Below are positions 7,293 to 23,766 of a DNA stretch of 64,000 nt, piece after piece (the stretch's first letter is position 1; every line of letters begins with the position of its first letter). The stretch spans positions 25,384 to 89,383 of the forward strand of contig DITQ01000006.1 of the NCBI GenBank assembly GCA_002422165.1, read 5' to 3'. Source of the DNA: Candidatus Pacebacteria bacterium UBA6180. Lineage in GTDB: Bacteria > Patescibacteriota > Microgenomatia > UBA1400 > PJMF01. The position numbers and the translations under genes are program-made. The notes below the pieces were generated by a model. That model saw only the letters and a list, made by a program, of their open reading frames with translations. It did no database searches and was not told where the DNA came from.

Positions 7293-8540
7293 ATGCTTGG
7301 AATTAAAACAAAAATTATTGGCAAACTGCAAAAAACTCTGGCCATTCAGGAGTGGTCTGTAAAAAAAATAAACTATTGGCAAAAAATACTACTGTTAGAA
7401 ACAGTTAAATGGCAACTCAAAAACGAAGCCAAGCAAATTGGTCTTCAAAACCCAATCGCATCCAAAACAAACTCTATTGTAAAAATAGTACGACAAAAAA
7501 CTGCAGCGTACATGCCCAATAATCTGGGGAACTGGTCAATTAAACAGCCATATTCTCTAACTACTAAAGTAGAATCCAAACTTATTAACTATTTCATTCA
7601 AAAATTCCAAGCAAATACAAAACAAATAGCGGGTCATTTTGGATCTGGTTCCACAGAAGGGAATATTTACGCCACCTGGATTGGGCGCAAATATTTACAA
7701 AAAAAACTTAAAACAAATGACTGCTCGCATATAGTCCTGCTCAAAAATAACTTGTCTCATTACTCTCTGGCAAAAGCAGCTGACGTAGTAGGCGTTGACG
7801 TCGCTGAAACAAACATCAGTATTCCTGAATTGAAAACTGATACAAATTTGTTAATGAAGCAATTGACAATCCTCTATCAGCAGGGAAAAAGAGGGTTTTT
7901 GATTCCACTAACCTTGGGTTACACCACAAGCGGCACAGACGACGATTTTATGCTCATATCTAAATTGATGAAAAAGTTCGAGCAAGAAATGAAAGGTGCT
8001 TTTACTTTTATATGGCTAGACGCTGCTTTTTCTGGGATTAGCAAAATATATACCGAGAAAAATTTCGAGCCTTTCAAGCAAAAAAATATTCAGCTCATTA
8101 CAAGCGATTTTCATAAATTGTTGGCTGTGCCTTATCCTGCAAGCCTTATTTTGTATCGCAAAGAGCTTCTCCAGCTTATTGCAAAAGATATACCTTATAT
8201 AGATCAAATGGACACTACTCTATTGGGGTCAAGACCTGGAAATAGCGTTTTGGAAACTTTTTTTGGTCTTATGTTAATTGGGGAGAAAAATATAACAGCA
8301 AACATTAAGAAGTCAATAAATTTAAAGAACGATTTTTTGAGTAAATTTAAAACTTCAAATAATTTTCAAGTCATAAACAATCACAACAGTCTTCAGGCTT
8401 GTTTGATATCAAACAACACTAAAATGGCTGAAAAAATAGCAAAAGAAAATAATTTGAACTACATCAATTACAAGCTAAAAATCAAGAACAAATATAAAAC
8501 AATTCACTTATTTAAACTCTATTTTTTACCTAAATTTTAG
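7293..8540 (+). CDS. PLP-dependent decarboxylase-like enzyme (group II, fold-type I)
   Basis: GSGSTEGNIYATWIG (compare SGGTE(A/S)N of group II decarboxylases), SHYSLAKAA, and ITSDFHKLLAVPYPASLILYR (S-x-HK with candidate PLP lysine). 415 aa. Confidence 0.45.
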   Translation: MLGIKTKIIGKLQKTLAIQEWSVKKINYWQKILLLETVKWQLKNEAKQIGLQNPIASKTNSIVKIVRQKTAAYMPNNLGNWSIKQPYSLTTKVESKLINYFIQKFQANTKQIAGHFGSGSTEGNIYATWIGRKYLQKKLKTNDCSHIVLLKNNLSHYSLAKAADVVGVDVAETNISIPELKTDTNLLMKQLTILYQQGKRGFLIPLTLGYTTSGTDDDFMLISKLMKKFEQEMKGAFTFIWLDAAFSGISKIYTEKNFEPFKQKNIQLITSDFHKLLAVPYPASLILYRKELLQLIAKDIPYIDQMDTTLLGSRPGNSVLETFFGLMLIGEKNITANIKKSINLKNDFLSKFKTSNNFQVINNHNSLQACLISNNTKMAEKIAKENNLNYINYKLKIKNKYKTIHLFKLYFLPKF

Positions 8541-8640
8541 AAGTACAATCTGAGACTATGGTTCATCCAAAAACAGATCGTTATAAAACAGCCAATAATC
8601 ACTCCTTTTGCAGGCGAGGATCGTGTTATAATTTCGGATC

Positions 8641-9894
8641 ATGAGCGGAGGAAAAAAAATCAAAAAAGCGGCTGTTTTAGTTGATGTCAAAACAAAACGC
8701 TACCTGGAGGAAAGCCAATCATTCACAACGATCCATAAATTAGCAAAACAACTTCACGGCAAGAGAATAGCACATATCAGTGTGTCAAGTCGCAGAGGCG
8801 GTGTGGCGCAAATTATTAAAAACTTAATTAAATTTCTCAAGGTAGTTGGTGTCAAAGTTGATTGGTACACTCTCCCAGAATCGAGACATTTTTTTAATGT
8901 TTCAAGAAATTTCAGAGATGTTTTGCAAGGAAAAAGAAAAAAAGTTTTTAAAGACGATGTGGATTTCTATCAGAAGTATCAGGAAAAACTAGCTAGCCAA
9001 ATTAAAATAAAAAACTATTCGCTCATTATCTTGCACGATTATCAAACACTATTTATGACCAATAAATTAGGTGAAAACTCCAAGCTTATTTGGCAATTTC
9101 ATCTAGACGCAGACTGGGACAACATTGATCAAACAATAAAGGAAAAAATAAAATTACAACTAAGACACTGCGATCGCTACATTTTTTCGGCAAAGGACTA
9201 CATTCCTAATTTTATAAACAGCGATCACTGCAAAATAATTCCGCCAGCTATTAATCCAGTTGAGAAAAAGAACATCTCACTTAGCCAAAGCGTAATTAAC
9301 AAAAAATTAAAGCGTCTTGGGATTGATCCAAAGAAACCAATTTTAGTGCAGGTAGATCGCTTCAATCCTTACAAAGACCAGTTGGGATTTTTGAAAGCAT
9401 ATCATATTGCCAAAATAAAACATCCTGATCTCCAAATTGTTTTTGTCTCACACAAAACAAATACTGTTGATGTTGAATTTGAAAATATTTATCAAAAACT
9501 TAAAAAGCTGTCACGAGGCGACAGCAATGTTTTCTTTTTTATTTCAAAAGAGAATAACGACGATATGGTGCGGTTATTTCAATCATGTGCCACTGTAGTA
9601 GTACAGAAAGCAACCAAGCAGGGTTTCGGCCTAGCAGTAACAGAAGCCATGTGGAAATCAAAGGCAGTCATTATTGCCCCAACTGTCGGAGCGCTGCTGC
9701 AAGTCAAAAATGGAAAATCTGGATTTGTAGCTAATAATTCTAAAGAATGTGCTGAGTTTATTTGCCAATTAGTAGAAAATCAACAGCTTAGATCAGCTAT
9801 TGAACACACATCCAAAGAAGTAGTGCAAAAAAAGTTTTTATTTCCAAGACTGGTAAAAGACTACTTGCTAATAATGAATGAAGCGCTACATTGA
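8641..9894 (+). CDS. glycosyltransferase family 4 (GT-B)
   Basis: C-terminal GFGLAVTEAMWKSKAVIIAPTVGALLQVKNGKSGFV is an EX7E-type nucleotide-sugar binding region. The N-terminal Rossmann half is HISVSSRRGGVAQIIKNL. Confidence 0.6.
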   Translation: MSGGKKIKKAAVLVDVKTKRYLEESQSFTTIHKLAKQLHGKRIAHISVSSRRGGVAQIIKNLIKFLKVVGVKVDWYTLPESRHFFNVSRNFRDVLQGKRKKVFKDDVDFYQKYQEKLASQIKIKNYSLIILHDYQTLFMTNKLGENSKLIWQFHLDADWDNIDQTIKEKIKLQLRHCDRYIFSAKDYIPNFINSDHCKIIPPAINPVEKKNISLSQSVINKKLKRLGIDPKKPILVQVDRFNPYKDQLGFLKAYHIAKIKHPDLQIVFVSHKTNTVDVEFENIYQKLKKLSRGDSNVFFFISKENNDDMVRLFQSCATVVVQKATKQGFGLAVTEAMWKSKAVIIAPTVGALLQVKNGKSGFVANNSKECAEFICQLVENQQLRSAIEHTSKEVVQKKFLFPRLVKDYLLIMNEALH

Positions 9895-9900
9895 AGAGAC

Positions 9901-10368
9901 ATGAAAATACATTATGTTTGCAATGGCAATGTGTTTCGCAGTAGACTCGCGGAGGCATATTCGCTTTCGCTTAATAATGGACATATTTATTCTTCAAGTG
10001 GTCTACGTGCAGCAACAAACGAGAATGGACCGATTGGATGGTATGCTGCTCGCATAGCGAAAAAGCGAAATTTATCTAGACTGCTCTCTCCTAGTTGGAC
10101 TACAACAACCTTGGATTTAATGAAACAACAAGATATTGTTGTTTTTTTATCAAAAAATGTTTTCAGTGATGCAGCTAATGTTTTCATTTTGGATCAACTT
10201 ACTTATGAGGTGTGGGACATACCAGACCTACCTGATTTTGGTTTTACCGATGATAATATTAGCGAGACGGAAGAAATGCGCAGCATTCTCACGTCGGAAA
10301 AAATATTCAATAAACTTACGAAACAAATTGATAGTTTTGTGTTAAATTTAAATGATGAAAATACTTAG
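9901..10368 (+). CDS. low-molecular-weight phosphatase family protein (LMW-PTP / ArsC-like, Wzb-like)
   Basis: N-terminal P-loop IHYVCNGNVFRSRLAEAY gives the CX5R(S) motif at residues 7-14. Size 155 aa. Confidence 0.6.
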   Translation: MKIHYVCNGNVFRSRLAEAYSLSLNNGHIYSSSGLRAATNENGPIGWYAARIAKKRNLSRLLSPSWTTTTLDLMKQQDIVVFLSKNVFSDAANVFILDQLTYEVWDIPDLPDFGFTDDNISETEEMRSILTSEKIFNKLTKQIDSFVLNLNDENT

Positions 10369-11830
10369 CATCGTTGCTGAGGTCATGCCTTTTTCAAGTG
10401 TTGGGGGTATGGCCAGAGGAACAAAATATTTAGCAGACGAATTGGTTGGTTTGAAAAATGAAGTAACAATATTCACTCCACTTCATAAGGATTCTGTTGA
10501 TTACTGTTCTAGGAACAACCATCGGCTTACAACCATATTTTCAAGCAGCTTGCCAAATAACTTTCGCTCATTCCAGGAATATGGGGACAAGCATTTCTCC
10601 ATACTGAAAATTAACAAAAAAGATCTAATCAGCAATTTTACTTTTTTCGATTACCCAGAGTTTTTTCGCCAACGAGCTAACGTTTATAATTACCATGATG
10701 ACGGACTACGTTTCTGGACATTCTCGGTTGGTTGTCTTGAATGGTTACTGGCACAAAAAAAAAGCAAGCAGTGGTTACCTGAATTAATTCATTGTCATGA
10801 TTGGCACACTTGTTTTTTGATAGAACAAATTAAAAAAAATTCTCGATATAAAGAATTAGCAAACATTCCAGTTTTACTGACCATACACAACTTTCGTTAT
10901 CAGGATAGCTCTGGGACAGCATTTCTTCGCCAGCTAACACCATTAGATTTACCGCTTGAAAAACTAAACCGTGCGGAGATCGAAAAACAAAATGCGCTTA
11001 GCATTGGCATTAAATATGCGGATTGCATCAATACGGTAAGTAAAACACATGCTCTAGAAGTCCAAGAGCCAGAATTTGGTTACAATTTAGCAAAAGAACT
11101 TAAAAATAAAAATGTTGTTGGCATTTTAAATGGACTAAACTATGAAGATTTTGACCCTAAAAAAGATTCTAAAATCTTTTTTAACTATGATGAAAAAAAT
11201 CTAATTGAAGGAAAAAAGAAAAATAAGCATTATTTACAAAAGCTTTTTGGATTGCCACAAAAGGGAGCTATGCTTTTTTGTTTTGTGGGAAGAGTCTCTG
11301 CTCAAAAAGGCATTGACTCGCTAACTGCCAGCTTGAAAAGGCTACTAAATAAACACAGGAATGTTCAATTCATATCTCTAGGCATTGGTGATGATTACTT
11401 TTGCGAGATGCTTTGGAAATTAGAAAAAGCATATCCAAAACAAGTTAAGGTTTTACTAAAACACGACGTTGATCTGCCAAGACAAATTTTTGCTGGAAGC
11501 GATTTGTGTCTTATACCCAGCAACTGGGAGCCTGGAGGAATTGTTGCCGTTGAGTCACAGCGATATGGATGCATTCCCCTAGTAAGGCGTGTCGGTGGGC
11601 TCAAAGACATAGTCAGCCAGTTCAGTGATAGCAATAGTACTGGCAACGGATTTGTATATCAAAAACAAACCATATCATCGCTACAGAGCAAAATAAAGCA
11701 AGCAATCACAATGTTTAATTCATCACCAATAAAATGGCTCTCTATCACCAGCAATGCCTTTAATTATAAAAGAGAATGGAGTGAAGTTGCTCACGACTAC
11801 AACCAGCTTTTTTTAAAAATGACAAGATGA
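10352..11830 (+). CDS. glycogen/starch-synthase-like glycosyltransferase (GT5-like, GT-B)
   Basis: N-terminus MKILSIVAEVMPFSSVGGMARGTKYLADEL parallels the GlgA start (MKIL..SE..PF.KTGGLADV). C-terminal GGIVAVESQRYGCIPLVRRVGGLKDIV parallels GlgA G.TQ..ALRYGT.P.VR.TGGL.DTV. Confidence 0.65.
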   Translation: MMKILSIVAEVMPFSSVGGMARGTKYLADELVGLKNEVTIFTPLHKDSVDYCSRNNHRLTTIFSSSLPNNFRSFQEYGDKHFSILKINKKDLISNFTFFDYPEFFRQRANVYNYHDDGLRFWTFSVGCLEWLLAQKKSKQWLPELIHCHDWHTCFLIEQIKKNSRYKELANIPVLLTIHNFRYQDSSGTAFLRQLTPLDLPLEKLNRAEIEKQNALSIGIKYADCINTVSKTHALEVQEPEFGYNLAKELKNKNVVGILNGLNYEDFDPKKDSKIFFNYDEKNLIEGKKKNKHYLQKLFGLPQKGAMLFCFVGRVSAQKGIDSLTASLKRLLNKHRNVQFISLGIGDDYFCEMLWKLEKAYPKQVKVLLKHDVDLPRQIFAGSDLCLIPSNWEPGGIVAVESQRYGCIPLVRRVGGLKDIVSQFSDSNSTGNGFVYQKQTISSLQSKIKQAITMFNSSPIKWLSITSNAFNYKREWSEVAHDYNQLFLKMTR

Positions 11831-12774
11831 TGCAAGAAAAAAATAGCAAGCAAAAGAAATTACTTCCTTTTCTCAAAGATAAATCCACTATCGAGAGAGA
11901 GTTATTTAAAAACCGACTCAATGAAAAGAAATTATTATCTTCTATCGAAAGCGCCTTAAGCCAAAAAAAGGGATCGCCATTTGTCATTCCAAAGCGCGGT
12001 CAGCCAGTCATTGCCCTAATGTCTGGAGGCATCGATACAACTGTGGTGATTGGCATGCTGATTGAGTTTTTTGGCTTGAGAGTTTACCCATTAATCATAG
12101 ACAGACAGCTACCGCATTCAAGAAAAATAAAAGCTGTTTGCAAAGACTTGAGCGACTATTTCAAAAATAAATACCCGACACACTTTCACCAACCTTTTAC
12201 CATTTCTCAAAAAATGCCTCACCAAAAATTTTCTTTACTTTATAGATTTGAAAATACTATTCTTTTTGACCAACAACGCGAAGGAATACCCCTACAACCA
12301 GCACTATATGCTTACCTCGCAGTTCAGTATGGCAAATACCTGCGTGCCACTCAAAATGTATATCCCCAGACTATTTTTGGAGGCTGGTTGCCAGAAAACT
12401 CAGAGTGGTATCGATATGAATCACTTTCCTCGCTTCGGTCTACGATGTTGCAAATAGCCACCATGGAACATGACTTTTCATGGCAATTCACCTCACTAGC
12501 AATTGAAAAAGAGCTGGGTTTATATTTATCAAAAGCACAGCTTGTTGCCATCGGGCATACACTTGGGATCCCACTAGAAAAAACGTGGACCTGCTACAAG
12601 GGAAAGCGTCACCAGTGCGGAACCTGTCCTCCATGCTGGACGCGGCAGCAAGCCTTCAAATTAGCGGGAGTAGTTGATGAGACAATTTATAAAGAAGGCT
12701 TTAATTTGAAAAATAAATTTAATGATGGCAGAGAATTTTTAAGAGATGTCAAAAGAAATTTCATTAAAAAATAA
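11827..12774 (+). CDS. QueC/ExsB-like PP-loop ATP pyrophosphatase with C-terminal Cys cluster
   Basis: PP-loop VIALMSGGIDTTVVIGML (SGGxDS/T) and C-terminal CYKGKRHQCGTCPPCWTRQQAF, a Zn-ribbon-like CxxC...CxxC as in QueC. Confidence 0.55.
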   Translation: MMQEKNSKQKKLLPFLKDKSTIERELFKNRLNEKKLLSSIESALSQKKGSPFVIPKRGQPVIALMSGGIDTTVVIGMLIEFFGLRVYPLIIDRQLPHSRKIKAVCKDLSDYFKNKYPTHFHQPFTISQKMPHQKFSLLYRFENTILFDQQREGIPLQPALYAYLAVQYGKYLRATQNVYPQTIFGGWLPENSEWYRYESLSSLRSTMLQIATMEHDFSWQFTSLAIEKELGLYLSKAQLVAIGHTLGIPLEKTWTCYKGKRHQCGTCPPCWTRQQAFKLAGVVDETIYKEGFNLKNKFNDGREFLRDVKRNFIKK

Positions 12775-13606
12775 AGCCGTTAAGTTTTATGACAATATTA
12801 AACTTAATTTAGGCATTAAGAAGTTTTTTAAGTACATTGCAAAATTGTTACTCAAAATACACTATTTTTTACTCGCACTATTGTATTATTACCCAAAATA
12901 TAAGGTTGAAAATTATGTTGGTAGAAAAATATCTCCTAAACTTAAAGTTCTAGAAGGACCCTTTAAGAAGTTGGCTTATCCATATTTTCCACTACCAGAG
13001 CAGCACTTTTCCACTATTTTACCTAAAATTAGTGGCGCATACGAAAAAGAGCTTTTTCCAGTCATCAAACAAATAAATAAACAAAAATATAGTGTTTTTA
13101 TAAATATTGGTTCTGATGAGGGCTATTATGCAGTCGGACTTGGCAAGCTAAATCCACAGGCAAAAGTCTACGCTATTGATATAAATAAAAAAGCTCTTTC
13201 TTTTTCAGTAGAGATGGCAAAAAATAATGATGTTAAAAATTACTTTAGCGTCGAATCTTCATCTCCATTTGCCATAGACAGGCTAATTGAAAATAAAACA
13301 TGCATCATTTGTGATTGCGAAGGATATGAAAAAACACTCCTAAACCCCAAAAAAATAGGTGGCCTAATCAATTCAGACATATTGGTGGAAGTTCATGGCA
13401 AAGCTATTGGCGATATACTACAAAAAAGATTTAGCCCAACGCATAATATCAAAAAAATTACACAAACCAACAAAATGATTGCCAAAGTCCCAATAAAATT
13501 TCTGTTTTTAAATTATTTTCACACCATAGATGAGATGAGATCTGAAGAATGCTTCTGGTTTTTTTTGAAAAGCCACTCCCACAACCCTAAAGGATCGGGT
13601 GCTTGA
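12746..13606 (+). CDS. FkbM-family methyltransferase-like protein
   Basis: SVFINIGSDEGYYAVGLG (compare DIGANIGYYS) and ICDCEGYEKTLL (compare IKIDVEGAEYEVL) match the FkbM family. Confidence 0.45.
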   Translation: MSKEISLKNKAVKFYDNIKLNLGIKKFFKYIAKLLLKIHYFLLALLYYYPKYKVENYVGRKISPKLKVLEGPFKKLAYPYFPLPEQHFSTILPKISGAYEKELFPVIKQINKQKYSVFINIGSDEGYYAVGLGKLNPQAKVYAIDINKKALSFSVEMAKNNDVKNYFSVESSSPFAIDRLIENKTCIICDCEGYEKTLLNPKKIGGLINSDILVEVHGKAIGDILQKRFSPTHNIKKITQTNKMIAKVPIKFLFLNYFHTIDEMRSEECFWFFLKSHSHNPKGSGA

Positions 13607-13613
13607 GATTAGG

Positions 13614-14342
13614 TTAAGTATTATTGCTACTTAAATTTTCTAGCTCAATTAGCTTGTTGCAATTCTTTTTGAGAAAATCTCTCCACTGACTCACCATTAA
13701 TACAGTCGTTTCATTCTCAATCATGTCTTGAATGGTTTTTTCAGATTTTTTCCTAAATTTTTCATCTCCCATGTTCATTACTTCATCTAATAACAAAATA
13801 TCTGGCTCAGCATGAACAGCCACACTAAAACCTAATCTTAACTTCATTCCACTAGAGTATGTATACAATGGCGCAGTAATAAAATCGCCAATACCAGCAA
13901 AATCTACAATTTGAGCAAATTTGGCCTTTGTCTCCTCTCTAGACATGCCAATCACCAAGCCATTGAGAAAAATATTTTCCTGACCGGTCAAGTCTGGATG
14001 GAAACCAGCCTCAAGATCTATTAGAGAAATAATCCTGCCCTTTGTCTTGACTTTACCAGTGGTCGGTGCACTAATGCCGGCAATGATTTTGAGCAAAGTG
14101 GTCTTACCAGCACCATTTGGTCCATGAAAACCCACCTTTTCACCTTTTCGAATCTGTAAATTGACGTCTTGCAGTGCCCAGTATTCCTCCCTCGGCTGAA
14201 AACGCAAGACACGACCAACGTCCTCTGCCAAAGTCGGCTTCTCATGGTGGACGATGTACTTTTTGCCCACACCCTTGAGGTTGATTACCACCTCACCAAG
14301 GTTTTTACTTTTGCGTATAATTTCTTCTTTTAAAGTTGTCAT
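13614..14342 (-). CDS. ABC transporter ATP-binding protein, polysaccharide/teichoic-acid export type (Wzt/TagH-like)
   Basis: Walker A GFHGPNGAGKTTLLKII, ABC signature YSSGMKLRLGF, Walker B ILLLDEV. 242 aa with no C-terminal carbohydrate-binding extension. Confidence 0.85.
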   Translation of the reverse strand: MTTLKEEIIRKSKNLGEVVINLKGVGKKYIVHHEKPTLAEDVGRVLRFQPREEYWALQDVNLQIRKGEKVGFHGPNGAGKTTLLKIIAGISAPTTGKVKTKGRIISLIDLEAGFHPDLTGQENIFLNGLVIGMSREETKAKFAQIVDFAGIGDFITAPLYTYSSGMKLRLGFSVAVHAEPDILLLDEVMNMGDEKFRKKSEKTIQDMIENETTVLMVSQWRDFLKKNCNKLIELENLSSNNT

Positions 14343-14380
14343 TTTTTATAATTTACCTTTTTATTTAACCCTGATGAAAA

Positions 14381-14536
14381 ACATTACAATTAATGTTCTG
14401 ACCATTGGAGGTGCTGGGCAAAGAACTAGAAAAATAAATAAAGCAAATCGACAGCACCTCCATTGAGAGAAACAAAGATTGCCTCATTAATAAGCATTTG
14501 TTTTTAGTTGAACGTGTCAGAACACTAATTGTAATG
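14381..14536. repeat. nested inverted-repeat element (about 156 bp) in the wzm-wzt intergenic spacer; MITE-like or structured RNA
   Basis: Outer 22-bp arms acattacaattaatgttctgac (14381-14402) and gtcagaacactaattgtaatgt (14515-14536) with 1 mismatch. Inner perfect 11-bp arms tggaggtgctg (14406-14416) and cagcacctcca (14452-14462). Confidence 0.5.
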
Positions 14537-14540
14537 TTTC

Positions 14541-15383
14541 TCATAACCAATCATCAAAATTTTTACTTTCCCTTCCAAAAACCCACCAACCCAGATAAAA
14601 CAGATAAAAGATCACTAGTAAGCCGACCCAACTAAATTCAAGCAAAGTAATCGGCAGTCCCATCAGCGCATAATGAAACAACTCAACAATAAAAGTCATC
14701 GGATTGAGATAAAAAACTGGCCAAAGCAAATCAGGCAAGAGATTGAGTGCATAAATCACTGGTGTGGCATAAAACCACAGCATCACTGCTAACTGCACTA
14801 TAAAGTTAACATCTCTAAAACGAACGTTGAGTGAAGAAGTGAAAAGTGATAGGCCAACTGTAAAAATCAAAAGAAGTAAAATCGCCGGCAAAAGCCACAA
14901 CATCCTTCCCAAATAGCTAAAAAGCGCCAGCATTCCGTACCCTTCCACGAATAGCTTGTCCGCCACCAGCGCCCCCACTAACAAAACCAAAGCGATTAAA
15001 AAATGAAATAAATTAGACAAAATAATCGACAAAACAATTGCCTCACGAGGAAATTTGGCTTTTTTAACCAAGTTGCGCTCATAAAAAAAGGCTGGTGTGC
15101 ATTTGGTCAAACTTTGGGCAAAAAAATTCCAGGGTAGAAGCCCTGCGAACAAAAATAGAAAATAATTATCTACTCGCACCGGCACAAAAAACTGAAAAAC
15201 AAAACCCATCACCATCATCTGTAATAAAGGGTTGATGACAATCCACAAAAACCCCAAGGTCGCATGTTTATACCGCGCCTTAATCTCCTTCTTCGTCATC
15301 ACCAGCAAAAAATCTAGCCAATGACTCTGCTTCTTAGTCAAGTGTAAAAGATTCTTCATCAGGTCACCAACATACCACACCAA
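14541..15383 (-). CDS. ABC-2 type transporter permease (Wzm/TagG-like)
   Basis: 280-aa polytopic membrane protein with about 6 hydrophobic helices, immediately upstream on the same strand of the Wzt-like ATPase. Confidence 0.7.
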   Translation of the reverse strand: MVWYVGDLMKNLLHLTKKQSHWLDFLLVMTKKEIKARYKHATLGFLWIVINPLLQMMVMGFVFQFFVPVRVDNYFLFLFAGLLPWNFFAQSLTKCTPAFFYERNLVKKAKFPREAIVLSIILSNLFHFLIALVLLVGALVADKLFVEGYGMLALFSYLGRMLWLLPAILLLLIFTVGLSLFTSSLNVRFRDVNFIVQLAVMLWFYATPVIYALNLLPDLLWPVFYLNPMTFIVELFHYALMGLPITLLEFSWVGLLVIFYLFYLGWWVFGRESKNFDDWL

Positions 15384-15451
15384 TTACCTATTGCAAAGAC
15401 ATGCAGAATTAAGTTATTCTTAAAAAGCGCGTTAATTATTGTATACGTCCA

Positions 15452-16837
15452 ATGACAAGCCCTCGAGATTTTTTACCATCTAAATATAAAAGTCAAATGG
15501 GCGACTTGCCAAAATCTGGCAAGCCTCCTGTAGACCCAAATGGATCCACTTCTCCCACTCTTGATGCTTCGGCTACTCTTGACGCTTCCACATCCCTTTC
15601 CCCAGACACAACCTCTGTTAAAGAACCAGAAAACTCGCCTTGGGCTGATTTGACAAAGGTTGACAGCTCACCTAGCTATCCAAGCCTAACCAATCCAGAC
15701 TTAAAATCAAATTCGGTTGATGAAGTCAAACCAAACGCTACGGCTGAAACAATGGCAAAGGATGAAACAAGCAACGACCAACCAAAAAATAAACCGCGCT
15801 TGAACAATCTGGCTGGAGTTTTGATCATTTTCTTTTTGGCTACTGGTTTAGTTGCCAGCTATTTCTTAATGCAAGAAAGTCAAGACACGAGACAGCAAGC
15901 AAGCTCAGGAGTTGGAGCGAGCTGTTATGTTGGCTCACAACCTAGTCCCCCATTCGATAAAAAGAGCTGTAACTGTAATGGCACCAATGTCTGGTTTGAT
16001 AACACAGGCTACTGTGGAGATAAAGCAGCATCTGGAGAAACCACAAGCACTCCAGGAACCGCCCATGATGCCACCTATGGACTTTGTGCTGTTTATTACA
16101 AGTATGGTTGCACCAACACCGGATCGCCCAACGATCCTCCTGGCAGCACTAATTACGCTGGTTGCTGGACTTGTACTAGCTCTGGCTGCTCTATAAAATC
16201 TGGCCCAGGTTACGAGCATTGCGCCGCTAACTGTCAAGTTTGGAAATGGAAGTGCGATCGCATCGATAATCTTTCCGGAGGTTGTCAGGATGGAACTCCC
16301 AGCGTTAGCTCTTCCCAATCCTTTAGTGCAAATTGTGGTGCTGAACAAATAGATGTGACTTGCGGTGGACAATCAAGAGATTTTCGAAGCAGGATCAATG
16401 ATCAGCCCTGCACCACTACCACCACGCCTCCTCCAACTACCACCACGCCTCCTCCAACTACCACCACGCCTCCTCCAACTGTTACACCAACTCCAACTCC
16501 CACTCCTACGCCTCCGCCTGTTTTGGTTTGTGCTGACATCGAGATGCTTGATGCAACTGGCAACACCATGACTGAAGATGATGACAAAGACTTAAGAGAT
16601 GGAGATCAGGTTCGCTTCCGAGCCAACCACTCAGGAAGTGCCACTGGCAAGATTACTTATGAATTTAGAATCTTAGCGCCAAATACTTCTACTTGGACAA
16701 ATCTGACCAATGCTGATGCTAGTGTATCTGCGCCAAATGTATCTGCCATATATACCATCGTAAGCTCTGGAGAGCATGTCGCTCAAGCCAGGGTTTGTCT
16801 AGACGGTCAATGTCAATCCTGGGAAACAATTAACTAA
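15452..16837 (+). CDS. Cys-rich surface protein: N-terminal membrane anchor and (TTTTPPP)3 plus (TP)n linker
   Basis: S/T/D-rich N-terminal region, helix LAGVLIIFFLATGLVASYFLM, a Cys-rich module, TTTTPPPTTTTPPPTTTTPPPTVTPTPTPTPTPPP, then another Cys-containing domain. Confidence 0.5.
   Translation: MTSPRDFLPSKYKSQMGDLPKSGKPPVDPNGSTSPTLDASATLDASTSLSPDTTSVKEPENSPWADLTKVDSSPSYPSLTNPDLKSNSVDEVKPNATAETMAKDETSNDQPKNKPRLNNLAGVLIIFFLATGLVASYFLMQESQDTRQQASSGVGASCYVGSQPSPPFDKKSCNCNGTNVWFDNTGYCGDKAASGETTSTPGTAHDATYGLCAVYYKYGCTNTGSPNDPPGSTNYAGCWTCTSSGCSIKSGPGYEHCAANCQVWKWKCDRIDNLSGGCQDGTPSVSSSQSFSANCGAEQIDVTCGGQSRDFRSRINDQPCTTTTTPPPTTTTPPPTTTTPPPTVTPTPTPTPTPPPVLVCADIEMLDATGNTMTEDDDKDLRDGDQVRFRANHSGSATGKITYEFRILAPNTSTWTNLTNADASVSAPNVSAIYTIVSSGEHVAQARVCLDGQCQSWETIN
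16405..16467. repeat. perfect 21-bp tandem repeat x3 (actaccaccacgcctcctcca) encoding TTTTPPP
   Basis: Three identical consecutive 21-bp units inside the CDS 15452..16837, followed by a degenerate (acn ccn) TP stretch. Confidence 0.8.
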
Positions 16838-16839
16838 TC

Positions 16840-17841
16840 ATGCTAACTAACCAAGAACCTAAACCAACCAGTTACCTCAAAGCCAGTCAAGGCGATGAGG
16901 TTAAGGTGACCAAGAAGCAAAACTTCAAGGCTGTGGCCATGCTGCTTGGATTCCTAGTCTTCATCATTGGAGCAATTGGCGTCTTCATGATCAGCCAGAA
17001 TCAAGACACTACTCCTGTAGCCCCAACTGCGCCTCAATCACAACCAGCAGCCTTTATCGAGAAAGCTCAAACCTGTACTTTAGTCTTTGACGTCACCGAG
17101 CCAGACAAACTTGCCTGTGGCGAAGTTGGCTGTGAAAGCGACAGTGACTGTGGCGACGAGCTAATTTGCACCACCGCCGATGATGACAAGAAATACTGCT
17201 CCAAAACTGACCACCGAATAGTTGACAGTTGCAAAAAAGATCCTAATGCAGTGAACTGCTGCAGCATCCCTGTAGAAGAACCTCTCGTCTGTGGCGAAGT
17301 TGGCTGTGTTTCCACCGACGATTGTAGTGAAGGATTAGTTTGTATTACCGCCGATGACGACAAGAAATACTGCGCTGATCAAAGATATTTGAGCGCTTGT
17401 ATTGCTGAACCCAATGAGGACAGTTGTTGTAGTGCTCCTCCCACCACTATTACTCCAACTGACGAACCTACAGTAACTCCAACTGATGAGCCCACGGTCA
17501 CTCCAACTGGTACGGTAACTGTTACTAAAACTGTTACTCCTACCACAACTGTGACTAACACTGTAACTCCAAGTGTCACCACTGTTATCACCACCGTTGG
17601 TTGTAACGATGTCTGTCAGGCCAATGCTGACTGCGCCAACATCAGTCACATTTGTTATCAGGGTCAGTGTCGTCTTGACGTCAATCCCACCGATGCTCAA
17701 TGCAGACTGCCAAGCGGTGAGACAACCATTGTTCGTCCAGTCCATGTGCCTACTCAAAGTGGCCCAGCAGACTGGCTCAACTACCTCAAAGCTGGACTAG
17801 GTGTCCTAGGCATTGGCGCCCTACTCCTCCTGCTTTTGTAA
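16840..17841 (+). CDS. paralogous Cys-rich surface protein: N-terminal anchor, two ~35-aa Cys-rich repeats, T/P linker, C-terminal hydrophobic tail
   Basis: Helix AVAMLLGFLVFIIGAIGVFMI. Repeats LACGEVGCESDSDCGDELICTTADDDKKYCS and LVCGEVGCVSTDDCSEGLVCITADDDKKYCA (nt 17112-17198 and 17289-17373). PTDEPTVTPTDEPTVTPTGTVTVT linker. Ends GLGVLGIGALLLLLL. Confidence 0.5.
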   Translation: MLTNQEPKPTSYLKASQGDEVKVTKKQNFKAVAMLLGFLVFIIGAIGVFMISQNQDTTPVAPTAPQSQPAAFIEKAQTCTLVFDVTEPDKLACGEVGCESDSDCGDELICTTADDDKKYCSKTDHRIVDSCKKDPNAVNCCSIPVEEPLVCGEVGCVSTDDCSEGLVCITADDDKKYCADQRYLSACIAEPNEDSCCSAPPTTITPTDEPTVTPTDEPTVTPTGTVTVTKTVTPTTTVTNTVTPSVTTVITTVGCNDVCQANADCANISHICYQGQCRLDVNPTDAQCRLPSGETTIVRPVHVPTQSGPADWLNYLKAGLGVLGIGALLLLLL

Positions 17842-17889: not shown

Positions 17890-17963
17890 GCGTGTGTAGC
17901 TCAATTGGTTAGAGCTCCAAGCTTATACCTTGGCGGTTCTAGGTTCGAGTCCTAGCACACGCA
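17890..17963 (+). tRNA. tRNA, anticodon UAU (tRNA-Ile reading AUA) by manual folding
   Basis: 7-bp acceptor stem gcgtgtg/cacacgc, D-arm tagctcaattggttagagc, anticodon stem ccaag/cttgg with loop cttatac (U33, anticodon tat at 17924-17926, A37), T-arm ctagg-ttcgagt-cctag, discriminator A. No encoded CCA. Confidence 0.7.
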
Positions 17964-18007
17964 CGTGGCTAGTCCCCGGAGAGGACAGGTGCTAAAATAA
18001 TAAAGTT

Positions 18008-18422: not shown

Positions 18423-19421
18423 TTAAAACAAGTGCTCCTCCAAATAGGCTGGCTGCTCACCAACCCCAGAGGAAATGATTTTCTTCACACTGGATAAAAC
18501 TTCCAAAACTTCCCTGACCTGCATTTCATACTGCGGCAGGGTCAACACGTGAACATTGAATCCCGTGTTAATGGTGAAATAAGCCGGTACGCCCTCGCGC
18601 CGCAACTGGCGCACTGCTTGCATCACCTCGACTGTGCCTGGGTAAAAAAGCAAAATGGTCGGCGAACTAGTAAGCAAAATGCTGTGAAATTCGAGTGCTT
18701 CTGCTTCAGCAAGTTCACCTAAGGCTACAAAGTCTTTGCTTAATATGCTGTTTTTCGCCTGCACTAGCTTGGTCTTCATTCGCTCCTGGCGAGCTGCAAA
18801 AAACGGACTGCTCTGCGCTAAATCGTGCCCCTCTGTCGAACTCATGATTTTTTTGTCCTCGCTGACAATCGCCACCAAATCTCTGATGGGCAGTTGATCG
18901 ACATCCGCAAAACTCTCTGAGTAAGAACTCTCAGAAGAGTCGCCATCCAACCACTCGACGAAGCCACCACAAACACACCTACAAGCTGTACCAGAACCTT
19001 GGCGAGCCAAGATTGATAGTTCTTTTTGACTTAGTTCTAGGCCCAAAGCCTTGGTAGCGGCTATTGTTAAGGCTGCAAAGCCCGAGCCAGAGCTGGATAG
19101 ACCAGTACTTTTGGGAAAATTGTTTTGAGAAACCACGCGAGCAAAGAGGTTTTTTGCAGACAAACCCTGCTCTCTGGCCAGAGCGCGCACGCGATCGAGC
19201 TGCTTGACCACCCGACCAGCTTCACCTTCTTCCACCATTCCGTCGATCGTTATCTGATCTTTATCCAGAGTCTCTAAAAATTCAACCGTGGTAGTGCTGT
19301 GTAGCGAATCCAAAACCATGGACAGACTGCCGTTGGCGGGCAAGCGCAAAACCTTGTCTTTTTTGCCCCAGTATTTGACGAGGGCGATATCGCTGTTGGC
19401 TCGAACGGTTGTTTTAGTCAT
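18423..19421 (-). CDS. mvaD: diphosphomevalonate decarboxylase (MVD)
   Basis: N-terminal IALVKYWGKKD and the GHMP-like P-loop GLSSSGSGFAALTIA are hallmarks of mevalonate diphosphate decarboxylase. Confidence 0.85.
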   Translation of the reverse strand: MTKTTVRANSDIALVKYWGKKDKVLRLPANGSLSMVLDSLHSTTTVEFLETLDKDQITIDGMVEEGEAGRVVKQLDRVRALAREQGLSAKNLFARVVSQNNFPKSTGLSSSGSGFAALTIAATKALGLELSQKELSILARQGSGTACRCVCGGFVEWLDGDSSESSYSESFADVDQLPIRDLVAIVSEDKKIMSSTEGHDLAQSSPFFAARQERMKTKLVQAKNSILSKDFVALGELAEAEALEFHSILLTSSPTILLFYPGTVEVMQAVRQLRREGVPAYFTINTGFNVHVLTLPQYEMQVREVLEVLSSVKKIISSGVGEQPAYLEEHLF

Positions 19422-19423
19422 AT

Positions 19424-20410
19424 TTAATTTTCCAACCTCACTCCTTCAGCATTAGTTTTTACCTCAATAATTTTACCACTAACTGAAGCGATCGCCTGCG
19501 CTACAGCAGCGCTCTGAGCTGGTTTAGCCACAGCCAGCATACAATCTCCCCCTCCTGCGCCAGACAGCTTGGCACCTAGAGCTCCGGCCGCCAAACTGGC
19601 CACAATTAAATTCTCTAATTCGCTGCTACTAACCTGCAGCTGACGCAGTAAATTTTGGTTTGCTGTCATTAACTCGCCCACTTTCGCAAAATCGCTTGCC
19701 GTCAAAGCCGACCTGGCCTGCTCAACCAAATTGCTAATTTGCTCAAAAATGCTGGCGATTTGCTGCTGATTTTCAGAGTAGGCCGCTTGCACCTTACGAA
19801 TTAAAGTGGCTGTATCAGCCTTAATGCCAGTATAGCCAACAACTAACGGCAGCTCATCGATTGCCAAAGGCAACACCGAGGGCTGCTTTGCTGGAGCCTT
19901 TGGAGTGACGTAATACAATGTCCCGCCCCAAATTGCCGCAGCGATGTCGAATCCGGAAGCCACGCCTTGAACGCTCAAAACTACCTGATAACAAAGATCA
20001 AACAATTCTTCGTTGTCTAGTCGTACCCCGTAAAACTCGCCCAACGCTTTGGCCAAAGCCACCGTGCTAGCGCTGCTGGAACCCAAGCCGTAAGAGCTGG
20101 TAAACTCGTTTTTGCTCAAAACTTTGACTCCATGCTCTTGGGGATGGCGCTGCAAGAAAAAACTCAAGCAAGTTTCCAAAAAACTAGCTGCTTTGAGCAA
20201 GTTGCCTTGTCCAAGCTCTTGTCGACTTTTGTGATAATCAAACAAAGCTAAATCCGGCGCTTCGAGACTAAAAAAGTGTTCATCGTTTTCCTCCACCGTC
20301 ACGCTCAGGCGCAGATCCACTGCCGTCACGAGACAAGGATGACCAAAAACCACACTGTGTTCGCCAAAAAGCATTAGTTTTCCCGGGGCAGAGGCTTTGA
20401 CTTTATGCAT
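19424..20410 (-). CDS. mvaK2: phosphomevalonate kinase (GHMP kinase, ERG8-type)
   Basis: APGKLMLFGEHSVVFG, GHMP motif GLGSSSASTVALAKAL, C-terminal GAKLSGAGGGDCMLAV (compare SGAGGGDC of bacterial PMK). Start trimmed to MHKVK to give an 8-nt overlap with the upstream gene. Confidence 0.65.
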   Translation of the reverse strand: MHKVKASAPGKLMLFGEHSVVFGHPCLVTAVDLRLSVTVEENDEHFFSLEAPDLALFDYHKSRQELGQGNLLKAASFLETCLSFFLQRHPQEHGVKVLSKNEFTSSYGLGSSSASTVALAKALGEFYGVRLDNEELFDLCYQVVLSVQGVASGFDIAAAIWGGTLYYVTPKAPAKQPSVLPLAIDELPLVVGYTGIKADTATLIRKVQAAYSENQQQIASIFEQISNLVEQARSALTASDFAKVGELMTANQNLLRQLQVSSSELENLIVASLAAGALGAKLSGAGGGDCMLAVAKPAQSAAVAQAIASVSGKIIEVKTNAEGVRLEN

Positions 20411-21296
20411 TTTGTCCTCCTTTTGACTCACCGAGGCTTGCTCCAAAAAAATCTAAACCCTGCACCTGCAATTGATTCGATAAAAAATGTGAATCGCTGT
20501 GCGTGGCCAGAATATAGCCCGAGCCGGCCGCGACACCGCCAGCACCAGTAATTTTGCAGTGGGCACCTATTGCCTGCAACTTGACAATGATTTTTTTGGC
20601 TGCCTCACCAACCACGCCCAACTCCTCCAGCAAAGCTTGATTTTGGTCAAACAACTGCGGCTGCCAGCGACCTTTTTGCAAATCCTCATGCATCTTGAGG
20701 CTAAGCTCAGCAATTTTGGCAATAGTTGCTGGAGCTTTAGGATTATTTTTGACCAAAGTGACCATTTCTCCAGTTGATTCGCTAGCTGCTCCAGAATTAA
20801 TTAGGAAAAACTTTTGCTCGGTCAAAATTGCTGCTTGCAAAGGAGTGCTCTCTCCACCCTGAAAAGCCAAGAGTCCGCCATAAACCACGATCGCGGGGTC
20901 AGCGCCGCTTGAGCTACCATGGATGAAATTTTCGGCTTCAAGCACCAGCTGATAAAGCTCTGCTTTGGTCAGTTCTCGACCAAAAAAGTTCATTACTGCC
21001 TGGAGCAAGGCAGCCGCCAAAGCCGCCGAAGAGCCTAGTCCCGATTTGACGGGCAGAGTTGAATCAATTTTGATAGCTACAGCCAGATCTTTTCGGCCCA
21101 GCACTCGCGCTGCCAACTGCAAAAGGTGCTGCAAATAAGCGTCGCTTCGCTGCTCCAGCGATAATTCACCTGCGCTCACGCTAGCGCGCACCCCTAAGTC
21201 CAAACTCGCTAATAAAGCCAAGTGACCAAAAACCACGCTGTGTTCACCAGTCAGGATAACTTTGCCTGAAAAAAAGGCCGTGCTCGTCTTAGACAT
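20403..21296 (-). CDS. mvaK1: mevalonate kinase (GHMP kinase)
   Basis: FSGKVILTGEHSVVFG and SGLGSSAALAAALLQAV. 297 aa. The MK versus PMK assignment of the two GHMP genes is by length and C-terminal motif only. Confidence 0.6.
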   Translation of the reverse strand: MSKTSTAFFSGKVILTGEHSVVFGHLALLASLDLGVRASVSAGELSLEQRSDAYLQHLLQLAARVLGRKDLAVAIKIDSTLPVKSGLGSSAALAAALLQAVMNFFGRELTKAELYQLVLEAENFIHGSSSGADPAIVVYGGLLAFQGGESTPLQAAILTEQKFFLINSGAASESTGEMVTLVKNNPKAPATIAKIAELSLKMHEDLQKGRWQPQLFDQNQALLEELGVVGEAAKKIIVKLQAIGAHCKITGAGGVAAGSGYILATHSDSHFLSNQLQVQGLDFFGASLGESKGGQNA

Positions 21297-21576
21297 GGGC
21301 TGCTTTCAGCCCATAAGCAATCACTTCTTCTGGCGCTTCTTTTTTAATCTTGCGCAAGACCAATTTAACTTGGTCGCCAATCTCAAAACTTTCACCGGCC
21401 ACGCCCATCAGGGAAATTTTTTCTTCTCCAAGATCAACAAGTAAATAAGCGTAAGGCAAAAAAGCAACCTGATCGCTGGCCGCCACTTCCATCAATGAGG
21501 CCGAGATAACTGTGCCCTCTTTGCCGAGATATTTTGACCAATTTTTGTTGTTGCGCCAACTTTCAGTTGTCTTCAT
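21289..21576 (-). CDS. DUF35-like OB-fold protein (putative scaffold of the thiolase/HMG-CoA synthase complex)
   Basis: 95-aa ORF between thiolase and MK. YLGKEGTVISASLMEVA...YAYLLVDLGEEKISLMGVAGESFEIGDQVKLV resembles the OB-fold half of DUF35 proteins. No Zn-ribbon cysteines are present. Confidence 0.45.
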   Translation of the reverse strand: MKTTESWRNNKNWSKYLGKEGTVISASLMEVAASDQVAFLPYAYLLVDLGEEKISLMGVAGESFEIGDQVKLVLRKIKKEAPEEVIAYGLKAAHV

Positions 21577-23764: not shown

Positions 23765-23766
23765 AA

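What the first reader, a model, noticed from the sequence alone, without database searches (positions are those of the whole stretch)
14343..14540. Nested inverted-repeat (MITE-like or structured RNA) element inside the wzm-wzt operon spacer
The 198-bp spacer between the ABC permease and ATPase genes, normally tightly coupled, contains a 22-bp imperfect terminal inverted repeat (14381-14402 / 14515-14536, 1 mismatch). This encloses an 11-bp perfect inner inverted repeat (14406-14416 / 14452-14462). The transcript would form a long compound hairpin. Possible explanations are a miniature inverted-repeat transposable element inserted into the operon, an intercistronic stabiliser or attenuator, or a binding site for a dimeric regulator. 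The only ORFs here (61-70 aa) look spurious.
Basis: seen in the sequence. Interest (0 to 1): 0.5.

Follow-up and report, generated by a model that had tools for sequence, protein, structure and literature searches.

The report
Rare palindromic insertion element in Patescibacteria
The hairpin between the two transporter genes is real: it is one copy of a rare, uncatalogued 160-185 bp palindromic element that sits between different gene pairs in a few candidate-phyla-radiation bacteria, keeping a nearly constant core inside fast-changing but always complementary arms.

Summary
The outer inverted repeat is 29 nt (14374-14402 / 14516-14544, 27/29 complementary). The inner one is 14 nt (14403-14416 / 14452-14465). 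It is the only such repeat in the 64 kb window, and the fold z-score is -8. The host is a Patescibacteria (CPR) bacterium. About 90 relatives have wzm and wzt overlapping or no more than 14 nt apart. Only four lineages carry the insert, and they are interspersed with empty-site relatives, so this is an insertion, not a conserved regulator. Homologous copies lie between alaS and an unknown gene, and between hrcA and grpE, on two other near-genome-size contigs, always in the same orientation as the flanking genes. All six copies share a 111-114 nt core of about 60-85% identity. The 23-35 bp arms have unrelated sequences but stay paired (20 of 27 tested pairs show double changes). I saw only one copy per genome, no conserved termini, no clear target duplication, no Rfam hit and no conserved ORF, so it is not a canonical MITE. 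The helices are almost purely Watson-Crick, which points to a DNA-level palindromic element that is co-transcribed. A functional RNA or a single-stranded-DNA recombination site remains possible.

The parts
14541..15383 (-). wzm, an ABC-2 type polysaccharide export permease (280 aa). Its stop codon TGA (14543-14541) lies inside the element's 5' arm.
   Evidence: ORF list. Pfam ABC2_membrane and NCBIfam Wzm/RfbD-like hits. C-terminus ..FDDWL matches 35 homologues.
14516..14544 (-). P1 5' arm (ATGAGAAACATTACAATTAGTGTTCTGAC), the outer stem of the element.
   Evidence: It pairs with 14374-14402, and the two non-Watson-Crick positions are G.U on this strand.
14502..14515 (-). Conserved junction motif ACGTTCAACTAAAA (family consensus ACGYTYRACTAAAA).
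   Evidence: Alignments A4 and A6: A15, C16, T19, A22, C23 and A26-A28 are invariant in all six copies.
14482..14501 (-). Variable segment that forms a small hairpin (P2). The register differs between copies.
   Evidence: Single-sequence folds. No consistent pairing could be placed on the alignment (inspection).
14466..14481 (-). Conserved junction CAATCTTTGTTTCTCT (family consensus CAATCTTNGTTTCKCT).
   Evidence: Invariant columns C49, A50, C53-T55, T58, T60, C61, C63 and T64 in A6.
14452..14465 (-). P3 5' strand (CAATGGAGGTGCTG), the inner stem.
   Evidence: The base (C-G, A-U, R.A, U-A, G-C) and the top (C-G, U-A, G-C) are invariant. The middle six pairs covary.
14417..14451 (-). P3 loop of 35 nt (34-36 nt in all six copies). 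Sequence is poorly conserved, with a U-rich tract followed by TAG/TAT.
   Evidence: Alignment A6.
14403..14416 (-). P3 3' strand (CAGCACCTCCAATG).
14374..14402 (-). P1 3' arm (GTCAGAACATTAATTGTAATGTTTTTCAT).
14343..14373 (-). 31-nt tail between the element and the wzt start codon (CAGGGTTAAATAAAAAGGTAAATTATAAAAA). It may be the ancestral spacer carrying the ribosome-binding site.
   Evidence: It is 84% identical to the tail in L101. The GGTTAAA stretch resembles the 14-nt spacer of the element-free relative L009.
13614..14342 (-). wzt, the ABC transporter ATP-binding subunit (242 aa, short type without a C-terminal domain).
   Evidence: Pfam ABC_tran, and NCBIfam Wzt/RfbE- and TagH-like hits.

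Best explanation
This is one copy of a rare, previously uncatalogued family of non-coding palindromic insertion elements found in Patescibacteria (CPR) genomes. Each element has a nearly constant 111-114 nt core: a conserved ACGYTYRACTAAAA junction, a small variable hairpin, a conserved CAATCTTNGTTTCKCTC junction, and a 13-bp inner stem with a 34-36 nt loop. The core is clamped by a 23-35 bp outer stem whose sequence is free to change as long as the two arms stay complementary. Shown: the element entered the wzm-wzt junction right at the wzm stop codon in one sub-lineage, whereas most relatives keep the genes overlapping or no more than 14 nt apart. Related copies sit in two other operon spacers in other genomes, and the arms travel with the element. 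Inferred: the element is propagated and maintained at the DNA level. I propose that it spreads between related strains by homologous recombination through the conserved gene ends, and that it rarely reaches new sites with the help of an unidentified trans-acting enzyme that recognises the conserved core in a folded single strand. I also propose that arm complementarity is kept by intramolecular template switching (quasi-palindrome correction), by selection for hairpin extrusion, or by both. Inferred consequence in this window: the insert breaks the translational coupling of wzm and wzt. Because it lies inside the operon, it would be transcribed into a hairpin of about -70 kcal/mol whose 29-bp stem is long enough to be an RNase III substrate. 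wzm and wzt expression could therefore be uncoupled or processed separately. That effect would be a by-product rather than the reason the element exists.
For: The repeat is real and non-random. Insertion polymorphism: among 80 loci of Wzm relatives, almost all have wzm and wzt overlapping or no more than 14 nt apart. The close relatives L098, L099, L100, L102, L103/L104 and L105 are empty. Only the window, L101, L007 and L016 carry the insert, and on the Wzt tree they are interspersed with empty-site lineages. Dispersal: homologous copies lie between alaS and a 739-aa ORF (L092, same as L089) and between hrcA and grpE (L094). L092 and L094 share 11 of 14 inner-arm bases despite their different contexts, so the arms are part of the unit. 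Core constraint: core length is 111-114 nt in all six copies, with 35 invariant columns, while arm identity falls to 34-55%. Pairing is maintained: 91.4% of cells are paired, 20 of 27 pairs have double changes, 0 of 500 shuffles reach this, and slid controls give 31-45%. W and L101 differ by four fully compensated arm changes, three of them transversion flips, with none uncompensated. DNA-like signature: 147 of 162 cells are Watson-Crick, only 1 is G.U on the sense strand and 5 are A.C, and no pair varies on one side only. The element variants segregate independently of their flanks. W and L101 elements are 83-84% identical while wzt third codon positions are 50% identical. L101 and L007 are 93% identical at third positions in the first 30 wzt codons, yet their arms are unrelated. 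It is non-coding: there is no Pfam hit, and in L092 and L094 a stop codon sits just upstream of the conserved core in the frame that is open in the four wzm-wzt copies, which in L092 leaves room for only about 7 codons (inspection). There is no Rfam family. Precedents: Correia elements combine an inverted repeat with a conserved core and bind RNase III (PMC2649163), and quasi-palindrome template switching is an established mutational mechanism (PMC7202029).
Against: No enzyme that could mobilise the element was identified, and no transposase, integrase or reverse transcriptase was seen among the roughly 35 window ORFs scanned. Copy number appears to be about one per genome, which is hard to reconcile with a self-propagating parasite. 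The constant core length, the constant loop length despite sequence drift, and the identical tandem TC/TC mismatch kept in P3 of L092 and L094 while three neighbouring pairs were compensated all look like selection on a folded molecule, which would also fit a functional RNA. Orientation is the same as the flanking genes in all three independent contexts. Only six distinct copies were found, from three independent contexts, so all statistics rest on a small sample. Transcription, RNase III cleavage and any effect on wzm or wzt expression are untested.
Confidence: 0.45

Rival explanations
1. It is a functional structured RNA: either a cis-acting intercistronic element or an independent small RNA. 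It would have spread horizontally and be kept by selection on its fold, with the conserved core as the active part and the long outer stem acting as a clamp. The functional strand could be antisense to the operon.
For: There is strong covariation in P1 and P3. Core length is constant at 111-114 nt and the P3 loop at 34-36 nt despite 30-40% sequence divergence. An R.A mismatch at the base of P3 is conserved in all six copies. L092 and L094 keep the same tandem TC/TC mismatch, which is a tandem G.A motif on the antisense strand, amid compensated neighbouring pairs. Orientation relative to the flanking genes is the same in 3 of 3 independent contexts. Copy number is about one per genome. The W and L101 elements are far more similar (83-84%) than the adjacent synonymous sites (43-50%). 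Arm mismatches are mostly transitions, with 8-9 compatible with G.U on the antisense strand and 2 on the sense strand. The antisense fold is more stable in 4 of 5 copies.
Against: There is no Rfam match even at E <= 10. There is no common neighbouring gene function: the neighbours are wzt, grpE and an unknown gene. The element is absent from the closest relatives at this locus. The helices have almost no wobble pairs (1 sense and 5 antisense out of 162) and many A-U/U-A flips, which is unusual for RNA families. Perfect stems of 22-26 bp are atypical for functional RNAs. No promoter or terminator signal was found for a separate transcript. The strand evidence is inconsistent, because W favours the sense strand. 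P2 has no consistent register.
Confidence: 0.27
2. It is a single-stranded-DNA recombination or 'homing' site, working like an integron attC site or an IS200/IS605 or REP hairpin. A tyrosine or HUH-type recombinase encoded elsewhere would recognise the folded core, and this would mediate insertion at gene ends and exchange of the downstream polysaccharide module.
For: Structure is conserved while stem sequence is free, and the helices are purely Watson-Crick. The position is at or within 15 nt of the upstream stop codon in every copy. Orientation is constant. The wzm|wzt junction is a recombination breakpoint: Wzm proteins 83% identical to the window's are followed by a 42% identical, 350-aa Wzt, and mosaic tracts end at the element.
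Against: By inspection there are no attC R''/R' boxes (RYYYAAC / GTTRRRY) at the base of the stem. There is no array of such sites and no integrase nearby. The conserved part is in the centre, not at the stem base as in attC. No candidate recombinase was identified. Breakpoints at a heterologous insert are expected from ordinary homologous recombination.
Confidence: 0.12
3. It is a classical MITE: a deletion derivative of an insertion sequence, mobilised by that element's transposase through its terminal inverted repeats.
For: It is short and non-coding, has 29-bp terminal inverted repeats, shows insertion polymorphism with intact empty sites, and occurs in several genomic contexts.
Against: There is a single copy in the window even with an unfiltered covariance-model search. 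There were no further copies in 537 kb of related DNA. There was one strict-pattern match on each of the 747 kb and 841 kb contigs. The terminal sequences are not conserved between copies while the core is, which is the reverse of the MITE pattern. No target duplication flanks the repeat. The window's terminal-repeat sequence had 0 exact matches in 185,579 species-representative genomes. No transposase was seen among the window ORFs scanned.
Confidence: 0.08
4. It is a chance palindrome in AT-rich spacer DNA, or an assembly artefact.
For: The local GC content is low, at 0.35-0.38.
Against: 0 of 100 shuffles reproduce the repeat. The fold z-scores are -8.1 and -6.8. The sequence is identical in three independent assemblies. 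Five further homologous copies have the same architecture.
Confidence: 0.01

Closest known systems
Correia repeat-enclosed elements (CREE/NEMIS) of Neisseria
   Same: Both are 100-160 bp non-coding elements with an inverted repeat of about 26 bp enclosing a conserved core. Both are inserted in or near operons and co-transcribed, giving a hairpin RNA that RNase III can bind or cut, and both show insertion polymorphism between strains (PMC2649163, PMC2229807).
   Different: Correia elements occur in hundreds of near-identical copies with conserved termini and a TA target duplication. The element here is about single-copy per genome, its arms differ completely between lineages, and no target duplication flanks the repeat.
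ERIC/IRU and other transcribed intergenic palindromic repeats of enterobacteria (my own knowledge)
   Same: Both are imperfect palindromes of about 127 bp in transcribed intergenic regions of operons. Their effects on mRNA stability depend on orientation, and copy number can be low in some species.
   Different: ERIC sequences are conserved along the whole palindrome. Here only the core is conserved. The hosts are Patescibacteria and there is no sequence similarity.
Prokaryotic MITEs in general (PMC10969869)
   Same: Small size, no coding capacity, terminal inverted repeats, and presence/absence polymorphism.
   Different: The element fails on multi-copy status, conserved terminal repeats matching a transposase, and target-site duplication.
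Integron attC sites (my own knowledge)
   Same: Both are imperfect palindromes placed directly after a stop codon in a fixed orientation, with structure conserved while stem sequence varies, and both are thought to act as folded single strands.
   Different: There are no R''/R' core sites, no array and no integrase. Here the centre is conserved and the stem base is variable, which is the opposite of attC.
Quasi-palindromes maintained by replication template switching (PMC7202029)
   Same: This is a mechanism that copies a change from one arm to the other. It explains arms that evolve quickly, stay Watson-Crick complementary, and include transversion flips.
   Different: It is a mutational mechanism, not an element family. 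It does not explain the conserved core or the retained TC/TC mismatch.

Membership tests
MITE | Short (under about 500 bp) and non-coding | tested here: met
   The element is 171 bp. The ORFs have no Pfam hit. The frame open in four copies is blocked by a stop codon in L092 and L094 (inspection).
MITE | Terminal inverted repeats | tested here: met
   29-nt arms, 27/29 complementary.
MITE | Target-site duplication directly flanking the inverted repeats | tested here: not met
   No direct repeat flanks the inverted repeat in W, L007, L092 or L094. The ATGA at both ends of the whole spacer follows from the conserved codons TTA-TGA and ATG-ACA.
MITE | Multiple similar copies in the genome | tested here: not met
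   There is one copy in 64 kb with the covariance model unfiltered. There is one strict-pattern match on each of the 747 kb and 841 kb contigs. None was found in 537 kb of other CPR loci. The complete genome of this organism could not be scanned.
MITE | Terminal repeats conserved within the family and matching an autonomous insertion sequence | tested here: not met
   Arm identity between lineages is 34-58%, with no conserved termini, while the core is 61-72% identical. No transposase was seen among the window ORFs scanned.
MITE | Insertion polymorphism with intact empty sites | tested here: met
Correia/ERIC-type transcribed palindromic repeat | Inverted repeat enclosing a conserved core, located in operon spacers | tested here: met
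   and the three contexts.
Correia/ERIC-type transcribed palindromic repeat | High copy number with sequence-conserved arms | tested here: not met
Correia/ERIC-type transcribed palindromic repeat | Co-transcription and RNase III/E processing | not testable with these tools
   This needs transcriptome data or in-vitro cleavage. All that is shown is that there is no terminator-like site in or beside the element.
Known structured RNA family (Rfam 15) | Match to a curated covariance model | tested here: not met
   There is no hit at gathering thresholds in the window apart from a tRNA. Only chance-level hits appear at E <= 10 on 14300-14600.
Cis-regulatory RNA (riboswitch or leader type) | Consistent association with one gene family or pathway | tested here: not met
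   The downstream genes are wzt, grpE and an unknown 739-aa ORF. The upstream genes are wzm, hrcA and alaS.
Cis-regulatory RNA (riboswitch or leader type) | Covariation supporting a conserved fold | tested here: inconclusive
   Covariation is strong. However, the helices are almost wobble-free and symmetric, so DNA-level maintenance of the palindrome could produce the same result.
Integron attC site | R'' (RYYYAAC) and R' (GTTRRRY) boxes at the base of the stem | tested here: not met
   Inspection of the six copies: no such boxes at the arm ends on either strand.
Integron attC site | Array of sites and/or an adjacent integron integrase | tested here: not met
   It is a single site, and no integrase appeared among the ORFs scanned.
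Intrinsic terminator | GC-rich short stem followed by a U tract | tested here: not met
   No terminator-like sites in 14200-14700.

The most novel reading that the evidence does not exclude
The 111-114 nt core is the functional unit of a new class of structure-dependent element specific to Patescibacteria. It could be a new small catalytic or protein-recruiting RNA (possibly read from the antisense strand), or the recognition fold of an unknown single-strand-specific recombinase. It would persist at about one copy per genome, move horizontally between lineages, and settle at the stop-codon end of operon genes. Its outer stem would be sequence-free because only closure of the core matters.
Probability: 0.2. 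Interest if true: 0.7.

Novelty: new variant of a known kind. Interest (0 to 1): 0.45.

Why it matters
Patescibacteria have tiny, streamlined genomes in which few repeat elements or non-coding RNAs have been described. My literature searches found nothing on MITEs or structured intergenic elements in this group. A non-coding element that keeps a constant core across lineages and contexts, tolerates complete turnover of its arms while staying paired, and can be wedged into a translationally coupled gene pair offers three things. It is a natural marker of recombination in polysaccharide loci. It is a test case for telling RNA-level covariation apart from DNA-level palindrome maintenance. It is also a candidate for an unrecognised mobilisation mechanism or RNA function in an uncultured phylum. 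If it is only a passive palindromic insertion, it is a modest addition to the catalogue of bacterial small repeats.

Tried and rejected
- **Extra copies via the terminal repeat.** An exact or degenerate search for the window's terminal repeat in 185,579 representative genomes gave 0 hits.
- **Plasmids and phages.** blastn of the spacer against both collections found no match. The strict core pattern had 0 hits in viral contigs.
- **Rfam.** Nothing was found at gathering thresholds or at E <= 10.
- **Small protein.** One frame is open in W, L101, L007 and L016 (38-66 aa). In L092 and L094 a stop codon lies directly upstream of the conserved CAA-TCT codons, leaving 7 aa in L092. I rejected a coding function.
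- **Pseudoknot.** Pairing between the ACTAAAA junction and the U-rich P3 loop gives 9-10 bp in W and L101 but only 0-5 bp in the others. It is not conserved.
- **Known ribozyme cores.** Hammerhead and twister cores, checked by eye, do not fit. The junction between P3 and P1 is empty and there is no CUGANGA.
- **attC boxes.** Absent.
- **Promoter or terminator in the element.** One weak promoter-like match, which is at chance level, and no terminator.
- **Link to the 739-aa ORFs.** The 739-aa ORFs next to the element in L092 and near wzm in L007 are unrelated.
- **ATGA as a 4-bp target duplication.** This is explained by conserved codons, and the tail resembles the spacer of an element-free relative.
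- **Strand assignment from wobble pairs.** The result is inconsistent: W favours the sense strand and the other copies favour the antisense strand.
- **A consistent P2 helix.** The pairing registers differ between copies.

Full report
**1. Observation**

The window region 14343-14540 is the 198-bp spacer between two genes on the - strand. One is an ABC-2 permease (wzm, 15383..14541). The other is an ABC ATPase (wzt, 14342..13614).

The repeat finder gives outer arms at 14374-14402 and 14516-14544 (29 nt, 93% complementary). It gives inner arms at 14403-14416 and 14452-14465 (14 nt, 93%).

- The 29-mer with up to 3 mismatches occurs only at these two places, and no shuffle reproduces this.
- It is the only long separated inverted repeat in the 64 kb.
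- The fold is -71.1 kcal/mol on the gene-sense strand (z = -8.1) and -59.1 on the other strand (z = -6.8).
- The wzm stop codon lies inside the 5' arm, but the Wzm C-terminus is the family consensus ..FDDWL.
- The same sequence is present in two other independent assemblies.

**2. Host and local context**

Wzm and Wzt homologues are annotated as Woesebacteria, Pacebacteria or Patescibacteria, so the window comes from a CPR bacterium.

The element sits in a low-GC (0.34-0.38) polysaccharide gene cluster. Among the roughly 35 ORFs scanned I saw no transposase, integrase or reverse transcriptase.

**3. The spacer is an insertion, not a conserved feature**

In 80 loci encoding Wzm relatives, the two genes nearly always overlap or lie no more than 14 nt apart. 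The few other long spacers contain no hairpin and no model hit.

| State | Loci |
|---|---|
| Empty site, e.g. ..TGGTTATGACAATT.. with the ATGA stop/start overlap | L098 and L099 (Wzm 85% and 83% identical); L100, L102, L103/L104, L105 (Wzt 87-78% identical) |
| Carries an insert | window, L101, L007 (same as L012), L016 |

On a Wzt tree the four insert-bearing lineages are interspersed with empty-site lineages.

**4. The element belongs to a dispersed family**

The inserts of L007 and L016 have the same architecture as the window's but different stem sequences. A three-sequence consensus fold already showed 23 of 43 pairs with compensatory double changes.

I then scanned metagenome contigs for a degenerate pattern taken from the conserved core. 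Ten places matched. Seven were structureless chance matches. Three were genuine:

- L089 and L092, which are the same sequence; L092 comes from a 747 kb contig.
- L094, on an 841 kb contig.

In L092 the element lies between alaS and a 739-aa ORF. In L094 it lies between hrcA and grpE, with its 5' arm overlapping the hrcA stop codon. In all three independent contexts the flanking genes are co-directional and the element has the same orientation relative to them. L092 and L094 share 11 of 14 inner-arm bases, so the arms move with the element.

**5. Anatomy**

| Part | Description |
|---|---|
| P1 (outer stem) | 23-35 bp, sequence variable |
| Junction 1 | ACGYTYRACTAAAA |
| P2 | Small hairpin whose pairing register differs between copies |
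| Junction 2 | CAATCTTNGTTTCKCTC |
| P3 (inner stem) | 13 bp, with invariant base and top and a conserved R.A mismatch |
| P3 loop | 34-36 nt, sequence poorly conserved |
| 3' end | CAATG, then P1' |

The core is 111-114 nt long in all six copies and has 35 invariant columns.

On the six-sequence alignment, with 14 bp of P1 plus P3:

- 91.4% of cells are paired.
- 20 of 27 pairs show changes on both sides.
- No shuffle reaches these values.
- Sliding the partner by 1-3 columns drops pairing to 31-45%.

A covariance model built from five copies finds each of them at 124-140 bits. It finds nothing else in the window, even with filters off, or in 537 kb of other CPR loci. Each long metagenome contig gave a single strict-pattern match. 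As far as I can see, copy number is about one per genome.

**6. What kind of constraint maintains it**

Three observations argue for a DNA-level palindrome rather than a typical RNA helix.

- The helices are almost purely Watson-Crick: 147 of 162 cells, with one G.U on the sense strand and five A.C (which would be G.U on the antisense strand).
- No pair varies on one side only.
- Many changes are A-T to T-A flips. W and L101 differ by four fully compensated arm changes, three of them transversion-type, with none uncompensated.

Template switching in quasi-palindromes copies a change from one arm to the other (PMC7202029) and would produce exactly this pattern.

Other features point to selection on a folded molecule.

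- The core and loop lengths are constant despite 30-40% sequence divergence.
- L092 and L094 keep an identical tandem TC/TC mismatch in P3 while three neighbouring pairs were compensated.
- On the antisense strand that mismatch is a tandem G.A motif. Most arm mismatches are A.C on the sense strand. The antisense fold is more stable in four of five copies.
- The window copy shows the opposite strand preference.

The strand, and whether the active form is RNA or single-stranded DNA, therefore remain open.

**7. Evolutionary dynamics**

| Comparison | Element | Flanking genes |
|---|---|---|
| W vs L101 | 83-84% identical across arms, core and the 31-nt tail | wzt 50% identical at third codon positions, 43% at four-fold sites |
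| L101 vs L007 | Arms unrelated | 93% identical at third positions in the first 30 wzt codons |
| W vs L007 | Elements different | 88% and 72% identical at third positions in the last 50 wzm codons |

The alleles (none, W-type, L007-type, L016-type) therefore segregate independently of their flanks. This fits one of two scenarios. The first is recombination through the conserved gene ends with breakpoints at the heterologous insert. The second is repeated insertion of different family members at the same junction.

The ATGA at both ends of the spacer is not good evidence for a target duplication. It follows from the conserved codons TTA-TGA and ATG-ACA. The tail also resembles the short spacer of an element-free relative.

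**8. Mechanism**

Most likely (0.45): this is a rare non-coding palindromic insertion element maintained at the DNA level. I infer that it spreads among related strains by recombination and only rarely reaches new sites through an unidentified enzyme that recognises the core.

In this window it separates a formerly coupled wzm-wzt pair. It should be co-transcribed into a very stable hairpin whose 29-bp stem is long enough for RNase III. This last point is an inference from general knowledge and from the Correia-element precedent (PMC2649163).

| Rival | Confidence |
|---|---|
| Functional structured RNA, possibly antisense | 0.27 |
| Single-stranded-DNA recombination site | 0.12 |
| Classical MITE | 0.08 |
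| Chance or artefact | 0.01 |

**9. Comparison with known families**

The element works most like Correia or ERIC-type transcribed palindromic repeats, which also combine an inverted repeat with a conserved core in operon spacers. It fails their copy-number and arm-conservation criteria.

It also fails the MITE criteria of target duplication, multiple copies and conserved termini. It matches no Rfam family and lacks attC boxes. My literature searches found nothing comparable described in Patescibacteria.

I class it as a new variant of a known kind.

**10. Limits**

- Only six distinct copies from three independent contexts were found.
- The scans of genome and metagenome collections were capped.
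- The complete genome of this organism could not be searched.
- No expression data were available.
- Copy number, strand, transcription, processing and the means of mobility are therefore inferences.

Noticed in passing
window 4000-16000: This is a low-GC island (0.34-0.38, against 0.45-0.50 elsewhere). It holds glycosyltransferases, a WecG/TagA-type transferase, methyltransferases, a PLP decarboxylase and the wzm/wzt pair. It looks like a polysaccharide gene cluster that may be horizontally exchanged.
   Followed up: partly
L003-L006, L099 compared with window 13614-15383: Wzm proteins 83% identical to the window's are followed by a different, longer Wzt (350 aa, about 42% identical) that overlaps wzm by 4 nt. 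The wzm|wzt junction therefore looks like a module-swapping breakpoint in these polysaccharide loci.
   Followed up: partly
window 17890-17964: A tRNA-Ile with the anticodon UAU, which is uncommon in bacteria, lies just downstream of two ORFs with no Pfam hit (15452-17841).
   Followed up: no
window 18423-25026: There is a complete-looking mevalonate pathway block: diphosphomevalonate decarboxylase-like, two GHMP kinases, thiolase, an HMG-CoA synthase-like gene and HMG-CoA reductase. A polyprenyl synthetase follows at 25914-26987.
   Followed up: no
window 50000-56000: GC skew on the + strand flips from about -0.11 to about +0.1-0.17 near 52-53 kb, although every ORF of 200 aa or more from 45 to 64 kb is on the - strand. 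The region to the right holds a VirB4-like conjugal transfer ATPase (54748-56919). This could be a replication origin or terminus, or the edge of an integrated element.
   Followed up: partly
window 42601-42641: A separate AT-rich palindrome (CTGTTTTTTTACAA..TTGTAAAAAAACAG, 14-bp stem, 13-nt loop) lies just upstream of valS (42674). It was picked up only as a weak stem-only hit of the element model. It resembles a bidirectional terminator.
   Followed up: no
window 40761-40826: An AT-rich (GC 0.21) hairpin-like stretch (AGACTTCTT..AAGAAGTCT arms) was reported as a weak model hit at 20 bits. It is not a family member.
   Followed up: no
L016 1082-1145: The tail after the element in L016 is longer (64 nt) and contains a second, GC-rich hairpin (CGGCAG..CTGCCG). 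An ORF that runs through the element ends in an ATGA overlap with the wzt start.
   Followed up: no
window 11827-12774: This 315-aa ORF matches Pfam QueC only over its last ~47 residues (profile positions 160-208 of 210). A similar 333-aa QueC-like gene recurs next to wzt in the relatives L003 and L004. It may be a diverged ATP-pyrophosphatase-type enzyme of the polysaccharide cluster.
   Followed up: no
window 29936-31789 and 42674-44923: There is an ATP-dependent (eukaryote/archaea-type) DNA ligase of 617 aa. There is also a ValRS of 749 aa that lacks the C-terminal part of the bacterial model.
   Followed up: no
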